This document shows, in pieces, positions 3,729 through 15,649 of a DNA stretch of 20,023 nucleotides (positions are counted from its first letter, which is position 1; every line of letters begins with the position of its first letter). The notes under the pieces are model-generated. The model saw nothing but the letters and a program-made list of their open reading frames with translations. It searched no databases and was not told the DNA's origin. The position numbers were made by a program, and so were the translations under genes. Origin of the DNA: a virus. The stretch lies in UHGV virus genome UHGV-0242051. One strand, 5' to 3'.

Positions 3729-4124
3729 TCACATTTCATAGGTAATGACATACGTCAGATCGGCTGAACTCCACAGGCCCGCATCATCGTCGCGCCGGTA
3801 GTCATAGCCACTGGCCACCATACTGGTGATCAAATCTGACAGTGCCGGGATATCGCTCATCACCGGATAAATCCGGGACTCCATCCACGAATCCAGCTCT
3901 GAATCCGGCACCTGAGCAGGCAGGAAAACTTCAATATGCAGCTCCGCCTGCCAGGTATCGCTGTCCAGCTCTTCGCCCGTGTATTCAGCGCCGGTGAGAT
4001 AAACGGCAATTGCCGGAAAATCTTCCTCATCAAAAACAGCGGGGCGACCATCAAAAAGCGTCGCCCCGGTGTCATGCTTCTCCAGTGCATCCAGTACGGC
4101 TGCACGGAGTTCAGTATGTTTCAT
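3729..4124 (-). CDS. U: Tail terminator protein U
   Basis: 131-aa [29 protein letters not shown]... matches remembered lambda gpU; start overlaps the Z stop. Confidence 0.95.
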
Positions 4125-4699
4125 CGCTTTATTACCATTCTCAGTTGATGCTGCAGCGCATAGCCCAGCTCTTTCGGAAGACGTTCACGCCGTATCCGTT
4201 CAATATTCTGTTTAAACGCCGTGGTAAGCGGCACCGCCATCGGGATTTTCACCACATCAATGGGGTAACGGTTTTTCCCGGCCACACGCTGCATGACATG
4301 CCACCGGCCATTTTTCAGTTGCTGAATAAACGCGCCGGGAATACGACGGTTCCCCACCACAAGCACGCTGCCGCCACCTTTCAGGGATGAACGCTGCCCC
4401 TTTTTACGACGCCTGCGGCGGGACAGGACAACCCGCGCATTACCCAGCTTGATTACGGGCAAATCCCCCCGGTTAACTTTGATTCTGGCCTGCGGGTTTT
4501 TGACCGTGGCCCTTTTCAGCCTGGCCCTTTCCTTTACCAGTTTCCGGCGTACCTTTGTCTCACGGGCAACCTGTGACGCCGACTGCGATATCGCGGATGA
4601 AGCAACGCGGTTAATGGCCATTGCGGCGGCACCGGGCACCGCCGTTTTGCTGATACGGCTGAGGTTTTCAACGGCCTGCTCAAGACCTTTTATGGCCAT
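4121..4699 (-). CDS. Z: Tail completion protein Z
   Basis: 192-aa ORF MAIKGLEQAVENLSRISKTAVPG... matches remembered lambda gpZ. Confidence 0.95.
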   Translation of the reverse strand: MAIKGLEQAVENLSRISKTAVPGAAAMAINRVASSAISQSASQVARETKVRRKLVKERARLKRATVKNPQARIKVNRGDLPVIKLGNARVVLSRRRRRKKGQRSSLKGGGSVLVVGNRRIPGAFIQQLKNGRWHVMQRVAGKNRYPIDVVKIPMAVPLTTAFKQNIERIRRERLPKELGYALQHQLRMVIKR

Positions 4700-13427: not shown

Positions 13428-13721
13428 ATGAAAAAAATGTTGTTTTCTGCCGCTCTGGCAATGCTTATTACAGGATGTGCTCAACAGACGTTTACTGTTG
13501 GAAACAAACCGACAGCAGTAACACCAAAGGAAACCATCACCCATCACTTCTTCGTTTCGGGAATTGGACAGGAGAAAACTGTTGATGCAGCCAAAATTTG
13601 TGGCGGCGCAGAAAATGTTGTTAAAACAGAAACCCAGCAAACATTCGTAAATGGATTGCTCGGTTTTATTACTTTAGGCATTTATACTCCGCTGGAAGCG
13701 CGTGTCTATTGCTCACAATAA
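13428..13721 (+). CDS. bor: Bor outer-membrane lipoprotein (serum-resistance moron)
   Basis: Track ORF 13380..13721 contains MKKMLFSAALAMLITGCAQQTFTV... with lipobox LITGC; 97 aa from Met17; opposite strand to late genes as in lambda. Confidence 0.95.
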   Translation: MKKMLFSAALAMLITGCAQQTFTVGNKPTAVTPKETITHHFFVSGIGQEKTVDAAKICGGAENVVKTETQQTFVNGLLGFITLGIYTPLEARVYCSQ

Positions 13722-13752: not shown

Positions 13753-14214
13753 CTATCTGCACTGCTCATTAATATACTTCTGGGTTCCTTCCAGTTGTTT
13801 TTGCATCGTGATCAGCCTCTCTCTGAGGGTGAAATAATCCCGTTCAGCGGTGTCTGCCAGTCGGGGGGAGGCTGCATTATCCACGCCGGAGGCGGTGGTG
13901 GCTTCACGCACTGACTGACAGACTGCTTTGATGTGCAACCGACGACGACCAGCGGCAACATCATCACGCAGAGCATCATTTTCAGCTTTCGCATCAGCTA
14001 ACTCCTTCGTGTATTTTGCATCGAGCGCAGCAACATCACGCTGACGCATCTGTATGTCAGTAATTGCCGCGTTCGCCAGCGTCAGTTCTCTGGCATTTTT
14101 GTCGCGCTGGGCTTTGTAGGTAATCGCGTTATCGCGGTAATGATTAACAGCCCAAGACAGGCAGACGATGATGCAGATAACCAGAGCGGAGATAATCGCG
14201 GCAACTCTTCTCAC
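13753..14214 (-). CDS. Rz: Spanin, inner-membrane subunit Rz
   Basis: Track ORF 13753..14229; from the internal GTG the product is 153 aa (..[42 protein letters not shown]...), near-identical to remembered lambda Rz; start overlaps the R stop (GTGA). Alternative start at 14229 possible. Confidence 0.88.
13812..13994 (-). CDS. Rz1: Spanin, outer-membrane lipoprotein subunit Rz1 (embedded in +1 frame of Rz)
   Basis: 60-aa [63 protein letters not shown] with lipobox VVGC and proline-rich tail, nested inside Rz. Confidence 0.9.
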
Positions 14215-14744
14215 TGATCTATCCCCCAACAGGCTAATGCGCTTTCCTGGTCACGACGAATAACCTGTCCGTAGCAGTTATTTGAACGTGTGCGGCAATC
14301 ACGCCCACCGTCCTTAATCCACCAGCGAATCGACTCACAGGCACCTTTACGATCACCGGCATTAAGCCGCTTATAAAACGTCGACGGGAAACACTTACCG
14401 GGGCCAATGTTATAGGGGCAAAATGACGCGATACCTGCTTTTTGTGGCTCGGTCAGTGGAACTTTTATATTACGCTCCACCCATGCCAGCGCCTTATCCC
14501 GCTCAATGGCGTTAACCTGGGCGCATTTTTCCTTCGACAGTTTCATGCCCGGAATAACAGGTTTACCATCCACCACCGTGGCACCCCGGCAAATGGTCCA
14601 TATGCCGGAACCATCGCGGTATGCCTTTGTGTGGTTACCCTCTTTTTCGTCCAGAAACTGGTCAAGTATCTGAGGAGCAGACGCGCCTGCGGCAATCAGC
14701 GCCAGAACAGCAGCCGACAGGCCGTATCTGATTTTTACGTTCAT
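14211..14744 (-). CDS. R: Endolysin, T4-lysozyme-type (GH24) with N-terminal SAR/signal-like hydrophobic segment (phage 21 R21-type)
   Basis: 177 aa; N-terminal Gly/Ala-rich hydrophobic stretch ([18 protein letters not shown]) then E35-(8 aa)-D44-(5 aa)-T50 spacing of the T4 lysozyme catalytic triad ([23 protein letters not shown]). Not the lambda transglycosylase R. Confidence 0.88.
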
Positions 14745-14878
14745 GGATATTTATCAGGATTTATCGGTTTCTGAACCCTGGATATGTTAAGCATTCAGCC
14801 CGTCAGTGGTAGGACACTGGCGCTCTGGTTAAGGATTATGGGGGATGCTGGCTGAGCTACCCCATCTGAGGATTTGAT

Positions 14879-15118
14879 ATGCAAAAAGAAGTTTTTATCA
14901 ATATTACAGCTGACTGCTCATCTCCTGCATCAACAGCAAAAGAAATTGAAGCTCTTAAATATATGATTACAGTAATATTTTCCGTATTGGACCAGAATGA
15001 AAAAAATGGAATCATTCATCAATTAAATGAACATGTAAATAATCCATATATCAAAAGCAATCTGGAAATGCTGCTACCAATGAAAGATATTGGAAAACCA
15101 ACTGAAACAAAAGGCTAA
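14879..15118 (+). CDS. Hypothetical 79-aa protein, AT-rich moron ORF of unknown function
   Basis: Track ORF MQKEVFINITADCSSPASTAKEIEALKYMITVIFSVLDQNEKNGIIHQ...; GAGGA Shine-Dalgarno about 7 nt upstream of ATG; markedly AT-rich codon usage versus flanking genes; opposite strand to the lysis genes; terminator-like hairpin downstream. No family recognised. Confidence 0.5.
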   Translation: MQKEVFINITADCSSPASTAKEIEALKYMITVIFSVLDQNEKNGIIHQLNEHVNNPYIKSNLEMLLPMKDIGKPTETKG

Positions 15119-15429
15119 CAACCAGTAATCGAGTTATCTGAACTGTTAATTTTTATGGTATACCGCGCCTCTGAACAGGGGCGCGTTTCTGGCAACAGCT
15201 CGTCCCCTTCACATAACCCGGCAGCAACATCCAGGAAGACCTGTCTGATGCTCCTTCTGGCTGCAGCCTCATAAAACTCCAGCGCGGCACCTTCAACACG
15301 GTCCAGCGAGATGTCCAGGTCAAAAATTTCACCGTCAAAGCGTTTTTTGTCCCGTAACGCTAAAGTTACCGTAACTTTATTCTCAAAATTGCGGATCCCT
15401 TTCACAATCAGTTCATAGTTTTGAGTCAT
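15115..15429 (-). CDS. YdfR-like small protein of unknown function, encoded between holin and endolysin
   Basis: 104-aa track ORF MTQNYELIVKGIRNFENKVTVTLALRDKKRFDGEIFDLD...; position matches the ydfR slot of Qin-type lysis cassettes, from recall. The last ~16 codons are encoded by the AT-rich moron DNA, so the native C-terminus may have been replaced. Confidence 0.6.
   Translation of the reverse strand: MTQNYELIVKGIRNFENKVTVTLALRDKKRFDGEIFDLDISLDRVEGAALEFYEAAARRSIRQVFLDVAAGLCEGDELLPETRPCSEARYTIKINSSDNSITGC
15164..15190 (+). terminator. Possible intrinsic terminator for the 79-aa moron transcript
   Basis: cgcgcc-tctgaaca-ggcgcg stem-loop followed by tttct, about 45 nt after the moron stop. 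It lies inside the 3' coding end of the convergent YdfR-like ORF. Coordinates +/-2. Confidence 0.35.
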
Positions 15430-15433
15430 TGAA

Positions 15434-15649
15434 TTACTCTCCCCGTGCAGCCTTACGCTTATCTTCTTTAATCTTGAAATAAAGGTTTGTCAGGTACGTC
15501 AGCAGGCCAAATACCAGGCTACCCAGCACACCTATTGCCGCCCACTGTGAGGGCGTGACTTTATCGAGCAACTGTAAAAACCAGTACCCGGCACTACCTG
15601 CTGAGGTGCCATAGGCGACACCCGTTGTTAACTTATCCATGGATTTCAT
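15434..15649 (-). CDS. S: Class II holin, phage 21 S21-type pinholin (71-aa antiholin form; 68-aa holin from Met4 at 15640)
   Basis: [71 protein letters not shown]: dual-start motif M-K-S-M, two hydrophobic segments, charged C-terminus; closely resembles remembered S21. Confidence 0.9.

What the first reader, a model, noticed from the sequence alone, without database searches (positions are those of the whole stretch)
14760..15195. AT-rich 79-aa moron inserted inside the lysis cassette, convergent with the YdfR-like gene
Between the endolysin start and the YdfR-like gene lies a visibly AT-rich island carrying a plus-strand ORF (14879-15118) with a strong Shine-Dalgarno (GAGGA) and a downstream hairpin plus T-run, i.e. 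a self-contained promoter-ORF-terminator moron on the strand opposite to late transcription. The protein (MQKEVFINITADCSSPASTAKEIEALKYMITVIFSVLDQNEK...) has no transmembrane segment and matches nothing I recognise. The island also supplies the last ~16 codons of the YdfR-like ORF, so the insertion seems to have remodelled that gene's 3' end. Such morons often encode lysogenic-conversion, immunity or anti-defence functions; I cannot say which.
Basis: partly seen in the sequence, partly recalled or inferred. Interest (0 to 1): 0.65.

Follow-up and report, generated by a model that had tools for sequence, protein, structure and literature searches.

The report
Prophage moron with conserved RNA leader
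The AT-rich island is a real, self-contained "moron" gene cassette in a lambda-like prophage; it encodes a small soluble protein related to an uncharacterised phage HK022 moron product, and its conserved, folded RNA leader also sits in front of at least 25 unrelated small genes in related prophages.

Summary
Window 14879-15118 (+) is an intact 79-aa ORF in a 31-36% GC island, antisense to the late lysis operon of a Perceval/DLP12-like E. coli prophage. Its stop codon overlaps that of the YdfR (DUF1327) gene.

It is a real gene. dN/dS is 0.20-0.27, the lowest of six frames. Homologues at 38-53% identity occur in Salmonella, Klebsiella and Serratia prophages, and it falls in the family of HK022 gp23 ("srb", annotated as a moron product). 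The function is unknown: there is no Pfam, PADLOC, PDB or fold match. AlphaFold gives a soluble three-helix protein (pLDDT 86).

The main new result lies upstream. An 85-nt 5' leader (14795-14878) has two hairpins supported by covariation and by plus-strand-only G·U pairs, and has no Rfam match. The same leader precedes at least 25 unrelated small cargo ORFs (median 79 aa, AT-rich, mostly acidic) in HK022, ES18, mEp213 and prophages of about nine enterobacterial genera. It is always antisense to late genes and usually converges on a late-strand ORF.

Transcription in lysogens is not shown, because the ORF was unannotated in the LF82 RNA-seq study. The closest functional analogue is the phi80 tai/ati "non-contiguous operon".

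The parts
14745..14794 (+). Conserved promoter-proximal region of the cassette. It directly abuts the endolysin start codon on the other strand. It contains a -10-like hexamer TATGTT (14783-14788) and the conserved motifs TATCAGG (14752-14758) and CCCTGG (14776-14781, which contains a CCTGG Dcm site).
   Evidence: The TAnnnT hexamer lies 6 nt upstream of TCAGCC in all 8 divergent lineages. Column conservation was measured over 87 unique upstream sequences. There is no consensus -35, and the promoter scan made no call. The TSS is inferred, not shown.
14795..14878 (+). Structured 5' leader: UCAGCC (14795-14800); hairpin 1 (14801-14822, loop GUAGGA); hairpin 2 (14838-14865, with GGCUGA at 14850-14855 in its loop, complementary to the 5' UCAGCC); SD GAGGA (14868-14872).
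   Evidence: Covariance model R1 scores 64 bits, E 3.5e-15, with a single copy in the window. On 55 sequences hairpin 1 is 98% paired and hairpin 2 85% paired; 8 pairs change on both sides; 0 of 500 shuffles reach the observed values; many G·U pairs are valid only on the + strand. The + strand folds at -31.5 kcal/mol against -22.9 for the - strand. No Rfam match.
14879..15118 (+). 79-aa cargo ORF (WP_001168526.1; phrog_21218; HK022 gp23/'srb' family). It is a small, soluble, slightly acidic three-helix protein.
   Evidence: ORF; RefSeq annotation; PHROG match; dN/dS 0.20-0.27; homologues; relation to HK022 gp23; AlphaFold pLDDT 86 with helices 16-35, 39-50 and 56-68.
15000..15006 (+). A7 homopolymer inside the ORF, a recurrent frameshift site. 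A6 gives a 48-aa product and A8 a 54-aa product.
   Evidence: Independent A6 variants occur in two lineages (L002, L006) and an A8 variant in a third (P0008). Contig counts are: the window protein is on >=1000 contigs, while the truncated form of lineage 2 is on 185 contigs against 115 for its full-length form.
15119..15188 (+). 3' UTR plus terminator-like hairpin (15164-15185) and a short T-run (15186-15188). The whole stretch lies inside the 3' end of the YdfR coding sequence on the other strand.
   Evidence: Hairpin of 9 pairs in the fold; the 77-nt region has z = -2.1. It is conserved in L003-L007, with a better T-run (TTTTCCTTTT) in L005/L006. Not called by the consensus scan.
15115..15429 (-). 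Convergent late-strand partner gene, YdfR (DUF1327, 104 aa). Its last ~22 codons (RPCSEARYTIKINSSDNSITGC) are encoded antisense to the cassette's 3' UTR and hairpin.
   Evidence: Pfam DUF1327, E 5e-39. The same tail sits on an unrelated 134-aa protein next to the same cargo. The Salmonella 97-aa partner is a distant YdfR relative that includes the tail. ES18 gp24 (DUF1327) converges on the same leader cassette.

Best explanation
The island is one copy of a portable moron expression cassette of lambdoid prophages. Reading on the + strand, it consists of:
- a weak or regulated promoter (inferred; -10-like TATGTT at 14783-14788);
- an ~85-nt structured 5' UTR with two hairpins and a possible 5'-end/loop pseudoknot;
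- an SD and a 79-aa cargo gene;
- an intrinsic-terminator-like hairpin buried in the 3' end of the convergent YdfR gene.

The cargo is a small, soluble, mildly acidic three-helix protein of the HK022 gp23 ('srb') moron family.

The most likely mode of action has three inferred steps:
1. The cassette is transcribed from the repressed prophage, independently of and antisense to the Q-dependent late operon.
2. The leader stabilises the mRNA and/or gates its translation.
3. The protein acts by binding another protein, from the host or from an incoming phage, rather than by catalysis or membrane insertion.

On induction, late transcription reads through the cassette in antisense. It expresses YdfR and is expected to damp the moron, as reported for phi80 tai/ati.

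Shown here: the anatomy, the coding selection, the RNA structure, the portability and the strand relation. Inferred: the promoter and TSS, lysogenic expression, protein-binding activity and any link to YdfR.
For: **Coding**
- dN/dS is 0.20-0.27 in the annotated frame, the lowest of six frames, across three lineages.
- Homologues of 73-75 aa at 38-53% identity occur in Salmonella, Klebsiella and Serratia prophages.
- It falls in the same BLAST-linked family as HK022 gp23. hhalign gives 92% probability, E 6e-7.

**Moron features**
- GC is 0.31-0.36 against ~0.52 in the flanks.
- The island is absent from the Qin-type junction, which jumps from 14760 to 15075.
- Holin and endolysin are adjacent in mEp213 and in Salmonella L041.
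- It is present in only 102 of 5426 complete E. coli genomes.

**Leader**
- CM hit of 64 bits.
- Covariation and plus-strand-only G·U pairs. The Klebsiella and Serratia leaders, which were found through the protein and not the RNA, carry compensatory changes in hairpin 1.

**Portability**
- The same leader precedes 86 distinct ORFs in >=25 families.
- These include HK022 gp23, ES18 gp25 and mEp213 gp72.
- All 188 recognisable phage genes within 3 kb lie on the opposite strand.
- 141 of 153 cassettes have a convergent late-strand ORF at their 3' end.

**Cargo properties**
- Median length 79 aa; GC 0.40 against 0.525 in flanks; 49 of 78 have net negative charge; none has a TM-like run.
- AlphaFold gives three helices, pLDDT 86.

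**Analogue**
- In phi80, taiEcA is an antisense moron in the Q operon. It is expressed in the lysogen and reduced when Q is expressed (PMC11364771).
Against: - No promoter reaches the consensus thresholds, and there is no recognisable -35.
- The T-run after the hairpin is only TTT in this window.
- The only transcriptome of a strain carrying this exact locus (LF82) did not annotate the ORF, so nothing was measured. It is not among the seven Perceval morons listed there.
- Frameshifts recur at the A7 tract, and in one lineage the truncated form is commoner (185 against 115 contigs). The protein is therefore dispensable in some backgrounds.
- No homology or fold match gives a function.
- For most sequences the 5' arm and loop of hairpin 1 were fixed by the search pattern, so covariation there rests on a few independent sequences and on 3'-arm changes.
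- The proposed pseudoknot has no covariation.
Confidence: 0.6

Rival explanations
1. Defence/counter-defence pair. The lysogen-expressed cargo is a small anti-phage (superinfection-exclusion or assembly-interference) protein. The convergent late gene (here YdfR, with its cassette-specific tail) is the cognate neutraliser made only during the prophage's own lytic cycle, as with phi80 TaiEcA/AtiEcA.
For: - The architecture is the same as phi80 tai/ati: an antisense gene interrupting the Q-dependent operon, with an adjacent late-strand partner.
- Tai genes sit mostly 'upstream of the packaging module'. Many cassettes here sit in the same place, with HNH or terminase genes as the nearest neighbours.
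- The cargo repertoire is hypervariable under constant expression signals, as expected for arms-race genes.
- The YdfR tail co-varies with cargo type: ORF79 goes with ...RYTIKINSSDNSITGC and ORF90 with ...VWITYKGKLPGRITGSLKTPP.
Against: - There is no sequence relation to Tai or to any PADLOC model.
- TaiEcA is about three times larger (26.1 kDa with tag).
- Partner families are heterogeneous and only a subset is DUF1327.
- Tail and cargo may co-vary simply because they are physically linked.
- No phenotype data exist.
Confidence: 0.2
2. The RNA, not the protein, is the functional product. Convergent transcription or antisense pairing from the cassette dampens leaky late-strand read-through into the endolysin, Rz and packaging genes in the lysogen, or it tunes late gene dosage. 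The ORF is incidental.
For: - The cassette is always antisense to late genes (188 of 188).
- Its 3' end overlaps a late-strand gene in most cases.
- The leader RNA is the most conserved part of the cassette.
- The ORF is recurrently frameshifted without loss of the locus.
- There are precedents for late transcription interacting with morons: phi80 and the P22 ant moron.
Against: - Purifying selection acts on the protein frame.
- 153 of 156 leader copies are followed by an intact ORF with an SD at a fixed distance.
- Cargo lengths cluster at 65-95 aa. An antisense function would not need ORFs, and would not need a leader built around an SD.
Confidence: 0.1
3. A decaying, functionless hitch-hiker: a remnant moron kept only by linkage with the prophage.
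For: - It is found in only 102 of 5426 complete E. coli genomes.
- Qin-type prophages have deleted it.
- There are three independent frameshifts at the A7 tract.
- It is not among the highly expressed Perceval genes, although it was not measured.
Against: - dN/dS is 0.2-0.27, with intact ORFs in three lineages that differ by 11-14% in DNA.
- The family is conserved across four genera at 38-53% identity.
- The exact protein is seen on >=1000 contigs.
- The leader shows compensatory evolution.
Confidence: 0.07

Closest known systems
HK022 gene 23 ('srb protein; moron gene product; gp23', NP_037683.1), one of the morons annotated in the HK022 record
   Same: - Same protein family: BLAST single linkage and hhalign at 92%.
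- Same leader RNA: R1 scores 93 bits.
- Same antisense orientation in the late operon, and a convergent small late-strand ORF (gp22) overlapping its 3' end.
   Different: - HK022 gp23 lies between tail genes I and J, not in the lysis cassette.
- It shares only ~24% identity with ORF79.
- Its partner is an unrelated 59-aa ORF rather than a DUF1327 protein.
- Its function is equally unknown.
Salmonella phage ES18 genes 24/25 (annotated 'possible moron; function unknown')
   Same: The leader cassette (gp25) converges on a DUF1327 gene (gp24), the same two-gene layout as ORF79 and YdfR. Putative terminators are annotated on both strands.
   Different: - The cargo gp25 (95 aa) is unrelated to ORF79 (hhalign probability 0.2%).
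- The pair sits between tail genes M and L.
- gp24 lacks the RYTIKIN... tail.
phi80 taiEcA/atiEcA 'non-contiguous operon' (PMC11364771)
   Same: An antisense moron interrupts the Q-dependent late operon. It is expressed in the lysogen and influenced by late transcription, and an adjacent late-strand gene is functionally coupled to it.
   Different: - No sequence similarity, and Tai is much larger.
- blastn found no copy of the leader in any phi80 record.
- Anti-phage activity has not been tested for ORF79.
Classical morons: lambda bor (here iss, window ~13428-13721), HK97 gp15 (PMC3594210)
   Same: Extra DNA with deviant GC and its own expression signals inside a late operon.
   Different: Those products are membrane or lipoproteins with known roles (serum resistance, superinfection exclusion). 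ORF79 is cytoplasmic with no known role. They were not seen to share this leader: the CM found a single copy in the window.
Stabilising structured 5' UTRs such as ompA (own knowledge, not tested here)
   Same: A hairpin at or near the 5' end, then a second hairpin, then the SD.
   Different: No sequence relation. The TSS is unknown here. A possible 5'-end/loop pseudoknot would be an additional feature.

Membership tests
Moron (Juhala et al. 2000, as summarised in PMC3594210) | Extra DNA between genes that are adjacent in related phages | tested here: met
   The Qin-type junction lacks 14761-15074. Holin and endolysin are adjacent or overlapping in mEp213 and Salmonella L041. The island is in 102 of 5426 E. 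coli genomes.
Moron (Juhala et al. 2000, as summarised in PMC3594210) | GC content differs from surrounding genes | tested here: met
   0.31-0.36 against 0.50-0.54. Across 83 cassettes, cargo is 0.40 against 0.525 in flanks.
Moron (Juhala et al. 2000, as summarised in PMC3594210) | Own promoter | tested here: inconclusive
   No consensus promoter was called. A TAnnnT hexamer is conserved 6 nt upstream of the leader in all lineages. All upstream genes are on the other strand, so a local promoter is required but is not shown.
Moron (Juhala et al. 2000, as summarised in PMC3594210) | Own terminator | tested here: inconclusive
   There is a GC-rich hairpin at 15164-15185, but only TTT follows it. 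Relatives have the hairpin with TTTTCCTTTT. A terminator-like site was found after 49 of 86 distinct cargos.
Moron (Juhala et al. 2000, as summarised in PMC3594210) | Expressed from the repressed prophage | not testable with these tools
   The ORF is unannotated in CU651637 and OV696612, so it is absent from the LF82 expression tables.
HK022 gp23 / 'srb' protein family (phrog_21218 and relatives) | Significant sequence or profile similarity over the helical core | tested here: met
   phrog_21218, E 1.9e-57. Single-linkage BLASTP at 1e-8 joins ORF79, the Salmonella, Klebsiella and Serratia homologues and HK022 gp23. hhalign gives 92%, E 6e-7, over 49 columns.
DUF1327 / YdfR (partner gene) | Pfam PF07041 above the gathering score | tested here: met
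   132.8 bits against a cutoff of 25.
Tai/Ati tail-assembly-inhibition system | Homology to Tai or Ati | tested here: inconclusive
   No Tai or Ati sequence was compared directly. PADLOC-DB 2023, which predates Tai, gave no hit. The size differs (79 aa against 26.1 kDa tagged).
Tai/Ati tail-assembly-inhibition system | Antisense gene interrupting the Q-dependent late operon, with an adjacent late-strand partner | tested here: met
   Gene order and strands. The pattern is general across cassettes.
Tai/Ati tail-assembly-inhibition system | Anti-phage activity and neutralisation by the partner | not testable with these tools
   Needs plaque assays.
Any Rfam RNA family (for the leader) | Covariance-model match | tested here: not met
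   No match at gathering score in the window. No match at E<=10 over the leader in the window or in HK022.

The most novel reading that the evidence does not exclude
The leader is an undescribed cis-regulatory RNA: two covarying hairpins with invariant loops, and a 5' UCAGCC able to pair with the GGCUGA in the loop of hairpin 2. Together with a convergent late-strand partner gene, it forms a portable 'plug-in' platform. Enterobacterial lambdoid prophages would use this platform to express, and to switch off on induction, a hypervariable arsenal of small acidic proteins. Under this reading these proteins are lysogen-expressed inhibitors of incoming phages or of host factors, paired with late-expressed antidotes. 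That would make the locus a discovery handle for dozens of new small-protein effectors.
Probability: 0.25. Interest if true: 0.85.

Novelty: new variant of a known kind. Interest (0 to 1): 0.6.

Why it matters
Morons are where prophages keep the genes that change their hosts, yet most are orphans studied one at a time. This locus turns out to be one instance of a shared expression platform. The same folded leader, the same antisense placement in the late operon and, usually, a convergent late gene are reused for at least 25 unrelated small proteins, from HK022 and ES18 to prophages of pathogenic B2 E. coli (LF82, NC101, NRG857c).

This has three practical consequences:
1. It gives a simple sequence handle, the leader covariance model, for cataloguing a whole class of lysogeny-associated small proteins.
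2. It points to a regulatory RNA that can be tested with compensatory mutations.
3. It reframes YdfR (DUF1327), long annotated inside lysis cassettes, as the partner of a moron rather than a lysis protein.

If the cargo and partner pairs behave like phi80 Tai/Ati, the platform is a reservoir of new phage-defence and counter-defence proteins.

Tried and rejected
**Homology and fold searches for the 79-aa protein**
- Pfam gave only a sub-threshold DUF1514 hit at E 0.022.
- NCBIfam gave IraP at E 0.09, which is chance.
- PADLOC gave nothing.
- The PDB sequence profile gave nothing below E 1.
- Foldseek against PDB on the first, low-confidence model gave nothing.

**Misleading or empty search results**
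- The exhaustive profile search returned large ankyrin-repeat proteins at E down to 2e-23. I rejected these as repeat-amplified weak matches of '...IVKYLI...LLQNDKNG' to the helix-turn region.
- A degenerate-peptide scan of GTDB species representatives found no relative of the ORF.
- The covariance model did not match the ORF90 slot occupants L011 and L012. They share only the first 44 nt of the upstream region.

**Alternative readings of the leader**
- A upstream ORF (uORF) in the leader was considered, because there is an AUG in the hairpin-2 loop. I rejected it: the AUG is lost in several lineages (GAUAGCUGA), and the reading frame and stop are not conserved.
- A sigma-54 promoter (GG/GC spacing off by one) and an extended -10 were checked by eye and rejected.
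- An RNA hairpin formed by the upstream CAGG...CCTG repeat was rejected, because mismatches there are not compensated.

**Other**
- A type I toxin or membrane protein was rejected: there is no hydrophobic run.
- Literature searches found nothing on this ORF or on the function of DUF1327. Searches on morons, HK022 srb and ES18 found nothing on a shared moron leader.
- The ES18 genome paper (PMC545730) is not held. Juhala et al. 2000, the HK97/HK022 genome paper, did not turn up in the searches and was not looked up. Either paper may already comment on the sequences flanking these morons.
Full report
**Context.** The window is a Perceval/DLP12-like lambdoid prophage of phylogroup-B2-type E. coli. 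The 551 bp around the finding are 100% identical to LF82, NRG857c, NC101 and many others and to phage Perceval. On the minus strand the late operon runs Q (quuD), holin EssD (15434-15649), YdfR/DUF1327 (15115-15429), SAR-type endolysin (14211-14744), Rz (13753-14229), then terminase. The porin and iss/bor genes lie on the plus strand.

**Observation.** All the described features are present.
- The ORF at 14879-15118 (+) encodes 79 aa.
- GC falls to 0.31-0.36 against about 0.52 in the flanks.
- GAGGA lies 6 nt before the ATG.
- A GC-rich hairpin lies at 15164-15185.
- The ORF's stop codon overlaps that of ydfR.
- The consensus scans called neither a plus-strand promoter nor this terminator, because the T-run is only TTT.

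**Is it a gene?** Yes.
- RefSeq annotates it as hypothetical protein WP_001168526.1, and it defines phrog_21218.
- The 246-bp core occurs in 102 of 5426 complete E. coli genomes, in three sequence lineages (>=95% and ~86% identity).
- Between lineages, 27-33 of 240 nt differ yet the frame stays open. Nei-Gojobori dN/dS is 0.20-0.27 in the annotated frame, the lowest of the six frames.
- An exhaustive profile search and follow-up searches found 73-75-aa homologues at 38-53% identity. They are named by their sources as Salmonella enterica, Klebsiella pneumoniae and Serratia marcescens.
- All of these sit in prophage late regions on the strand opposite to the flanking lysis and packaging genes.

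There is one caveat. An A7 tract (15000-15006) is a recurrent frameshift site, with A6 in two lineages and A8 in a third. The exact window protein is on >=1000 contigs, but in lineage 2 the truncated form (185 contigs) outnumbers the full-length form (115).

**What is the protein?** No function can be assigned by homology or fold.
- Pfam, NCBIfam, PADLOC, PDB sequence profiles and two fold searches gave nothing specific.
- Strong-looking hits to giant ankyrin-repeat proteins are repeat-amplified artefacts.
- With an 8-sequence alignment AlphaFold gives pLDDT 86. The model has an extended N-terminus carrying the invariant D12-C13, followed by three helices.
- There is no signal peptide or TM-like run, and the net charge is slightly negative.

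**Comparative anatomy of the island.**
- Qin-type prophages jump from window 14760 directly to 15075. They keep the last 15 codons, the 3' UTR, the hairpin and the same YdfR tail. The junction is consistent with a deletion at GGAT/GCT microhomology.
- Elsewhere the same ORF sits upstream of a different lysis cassette (two holins and an M15 peptidase). There it converges on an unrelated 134-aa protein that nevertheless ends in the same RLCSEARYTIKINSSDNSIAGC tail.
- The Salmonella partner (97 aa) is a distant YdfR relative, at 27% identity and E 2e-5. The match runs into a similar tail (residue comparison).
- The tail is therefore a genuine peptide that co-travels with the cassette's 3' end, not an accident of insertion.
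- Other prophages carry different plus-strand ORFs at the same slot: a 90-aa protein, accompanied by a different YdfR tail, or a DUF1883 protein.

**The leader.** When the upstream regions of all homologues are aligned, about 85 nt before the ATG turn out to be conserved even between genera. The elements are, in order:
- UCAGCC;
- hairpin 1 (CGUCAGUG-GUAGGA-CACUGGCG);
- a variable linker;
- hairpin 2, with an almost invariant loop GAUGGCUGAUUA;
- the SD.

The Klebsiella and Serratia versions were found through the protein, not the RNA. They carry compensatory changes in hairpin 1 (CUGUG/CACAG and CCAUG/CAUGG).

Pair counts on 55 distinct leaders were as follows.

| Measure | Result |
|---|---|
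| Hairpin 1, cells paired | 98% |
| Hairpin 2, cells paired | 85% |
| Pairs changed on both sides | 8 |
| Shuffles reaching the observed values | 0 of 500 |
| Cells paired in slid registers | 29-46% |
| G·U pairs, pair 9-30 | 35 |
| G·U pairs, pair 52-74 | 19 |
| G·U pairs, pair 54-72 | 8 |

The G·U pairs would be A·C mismatches on the other strand, so the plus strand is the structured RNA. The plus strand also folds better (-31.5 against -22.9 kcal/mol).

The 5' UCAGCC is complementary to the GGCUGA in the loop of hairpin 2. Both are nearly invariant, so a pseudoknot or an alternative long-range helix is possible but has no covariation support.

Six nucleotides upstream of UCAGCC, every lineage has a TAnnnT hexamer (TATGTT, TAAGGT, TAATGT and others). 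It is preceded by conserved CCCTGG and ATATCAGG motifs. This is the best -10 candidate. There is no consensus -35, and the TSS is unknown. Rfam has no matching family.

One caveat on ascertainment: most leaders were collected with a 21-nt pattern that covers the 5' arm and loop of hairpin 1. Hairpin 2 and the 3' arm of hairpin 1 are unbiased.

**Portability.** Searching for the hairpin-1 pattern gave:
- 14 sites in GTDB species representatives (Citrobacter, Enterobacter, Kluyvera, Atlantibacter, Dryocola);
- more than 120 sites in IMG/VR.

None of the 14 GTDB sites encodes a tblastn relative of ORF79. Across 156 leader copies there are 86 distinct downstream ORFs, falling into >=25 BLAST families. 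Only one further family is related to ORF79 by hhalign (95%).

The cargos have these properties:
- median length 79 aa, and 75 of 83 are <=100 aa;
- GC 0.40 against 0.525 in the flanks, lower than the flanks in 81 of 83;
- mostly net negative charge, with no TM-like run;
- almost all without Pfam matches, the exceptions being DUF1883 and a retropepsin-like 154-aa protein.

The placement is equally constant.
- All 188 recognisable phage genes within 3 kb are on the opposite strand. The nearest neighbours are HNH, endolysin, holin and terminase genes.
- 141 of 153 cassettes have a late-strand ORF of >=45 aa whose stop lies within -120 to +200 nt of the cargo stop, usually overlapping it.
- These partners are heterogeneous. 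DUF1327 proteins are a subset, and small 'MTLEQRVEALEK...' coiled-coil proteins are another recurrent type.

**Link to classical phages.** blastn of a typical leader hits 24 phage records.
- In HK022 it precedes gene 23 ('srb protein; moron gene product'), between tail genes I and J, converging on gp22.
- In ES18 it precedes gp25 ('possible moron'), which converges on gp24. gp24 is a DUF1327 protein, and the pair lies between tail genes M and L.
- In mEp213 it precedes gp72, downstream of Rz.
- A covariance model built from the alignment scores 93, 79 and 78 bits on these three phages and 64 bits on the window, where there is a single copy.
- ORF79 is in the same family as HK022 gp23.

So the finding is a member of a moron family already annotated as such in the HK022 record. 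The [DUF1327 gene + antisense cassette] pair is a two-gene module that can sit in tail or lysis regions. YdfR is therefore more likely the moron's partner than a lysis protein.

**Expression.** The LF82 transcriptome study defined seven Perceval morons: LF82_152, NmpC, the TonB fragment and SitABCD. This ORF is annotated in neither CU651637 nor OV696612, so it was never counted. Lysogenic expression is therefore inferred from architecture only.

**Mechanism.** The closest worked example is phi80 taiEcA/atiEcA. There an antisense moron interrupts the Q-dependent operon, is expressed in the lysogen and is reduced when Q is expressed. A small adjacent late gene neutralises it during the phage's own lytic cycle (PMC11364771).

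I commit to the following.
- The cassette is an autonomous, lysogeny-oriented expression unit.
- Its leader stabilises the mRNA and/or gates its translation.
- Its cargo is a small soluble binder.
- Late antisense transcription, together with the convergent partner, provides the switch on induction.

Confidence in the anatomy is high. For the full statement including expression it is about 0.6. For a defence/antidote pair specifically it is about 0.2. The rivals are an RNA-only antisense function and a decaying remnant. Both are disfavoured by selection on the reading frame and by the invariable presence of an SD and an ORF behind the leader.

**Novelty.** The ORF itself is a new member of a known, uncharacterised moron family. 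I could not find any description, in Rfam or in the searchable literature, of a covarying leader RNA shared by at least 25 cargo families with constant antisense placement. However, I could not read the original HK97/HK022 and ES18 genome papers (for ES18).

Noticed in passing
window 14745-14760 joined to 15075 onward, compared with L008 1486-1545: The Qin-type (K-12-like) ydfR-rrrQ junction looks like a deletion derivative of this cassette. It keeps the first 16 nt of the upstream region, the last 15 codons of the ORF, the 3' UTR, the hairpin and the YdfR tail, with GGAT/GCT microhomology at the junction.
   Followed up: partly
L011 1606-1878 and L012 1606-1878 (same slot as window 14879-15118): A different 90-aa plus-strand ORF occupies the same slot between the endolysin and YdfR genes in other E. 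coli prophages, including one in BL21-AI. It shares only the first 44 nt of the upstream region, has its own hairpin, and overlaps an alternative YdfR tail by 35 nt. A 63%-identical relative sits behind the canonical leader in Citrobacter (L049).
   Followed up: partly
L068 (IMGVR_UViG_2582580856_000003), leaders at 2303-2323 and 4355-4375 (- strand): Two leader cassettes lie 2 kb apart on the same strand. One carries an HK022-gp23-like 73-aa cargo and the other a 154-aa retropepsin-like protein (DTG motif). This suggests cassettes can be arrayed. Enterobacter bugandensis carries three copies with three different cargos on one chromosome (L050, L059, L062).
   Followed up: no
window 14776-14781 and the equivalent position in 87 upstream regions: The conserved CCCTGG just upstream of the -10-like hexamer contains a Dcm methylation site (CCTGG). 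Together with the upstream ATATCAGG it forms an imperfect inverted repeat (CAGG-N20-CCTG), which might be a protein-binding site. Mismatches are not compensated, so it is unlikely to be an RNA stem.
   Followed up: partly
window 14846-14877: An AUG in the hairpin-2 loop opens a 10-codon uORF whose stop (TGA, 14875-14877) lies 1 nt before the main ATG. The AUG, frame and stop are not conserved in other leaders, so it is probably incidental.
   Followed up: yes
LF82 expression tables (PMC9928086 S1/S4), genes LF82_767 (ydfR) and LF82_2835 (endolysin): ydfR has several-fold more reads per kb than the adjacent endolysin in most conditions (for example 40/27/50/45 reads over 315 nt against 7/14/13/5 over 534 nt). 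This could reflect moron transcripts overlapping the ydfR 3' end if the counting was not strand-specific. However, Tritos ydfR, which lacks the ORF, shows a similar small excess.
   Followed up: no
L085 (IMGVR_UViG_2808606654_000010), leader at 1250-1270: An IS3-family element is inserted in hairpin 2 of one leader copy: the OrfA-like 92-aa product follows the leader.
   Followed up: no
L005 ~1360-1385, L026 ~3850-3880, L183 ~2485-2510: In many loci, though not in this window, the cassette's upstream edge is a late-strand intrinsic terminator (for example GCCACCCGAAGGTGGC preceded by an A-run on the + strand). ES18 annotates it as the terminator of gene 24. Q-modified polymerase would have to read through it.
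   Followed up: no
P0009, P0011, P0013, P0015: The profile of the 79-aa family scores E 2e-23 against giant ankyrin-repeat proteins, through many weak repeats of '...IVKYLI...LLQNDKNG...'. This is a caution that summed repeat scores can mimic homology for short helical queries.
   Followed up: yes
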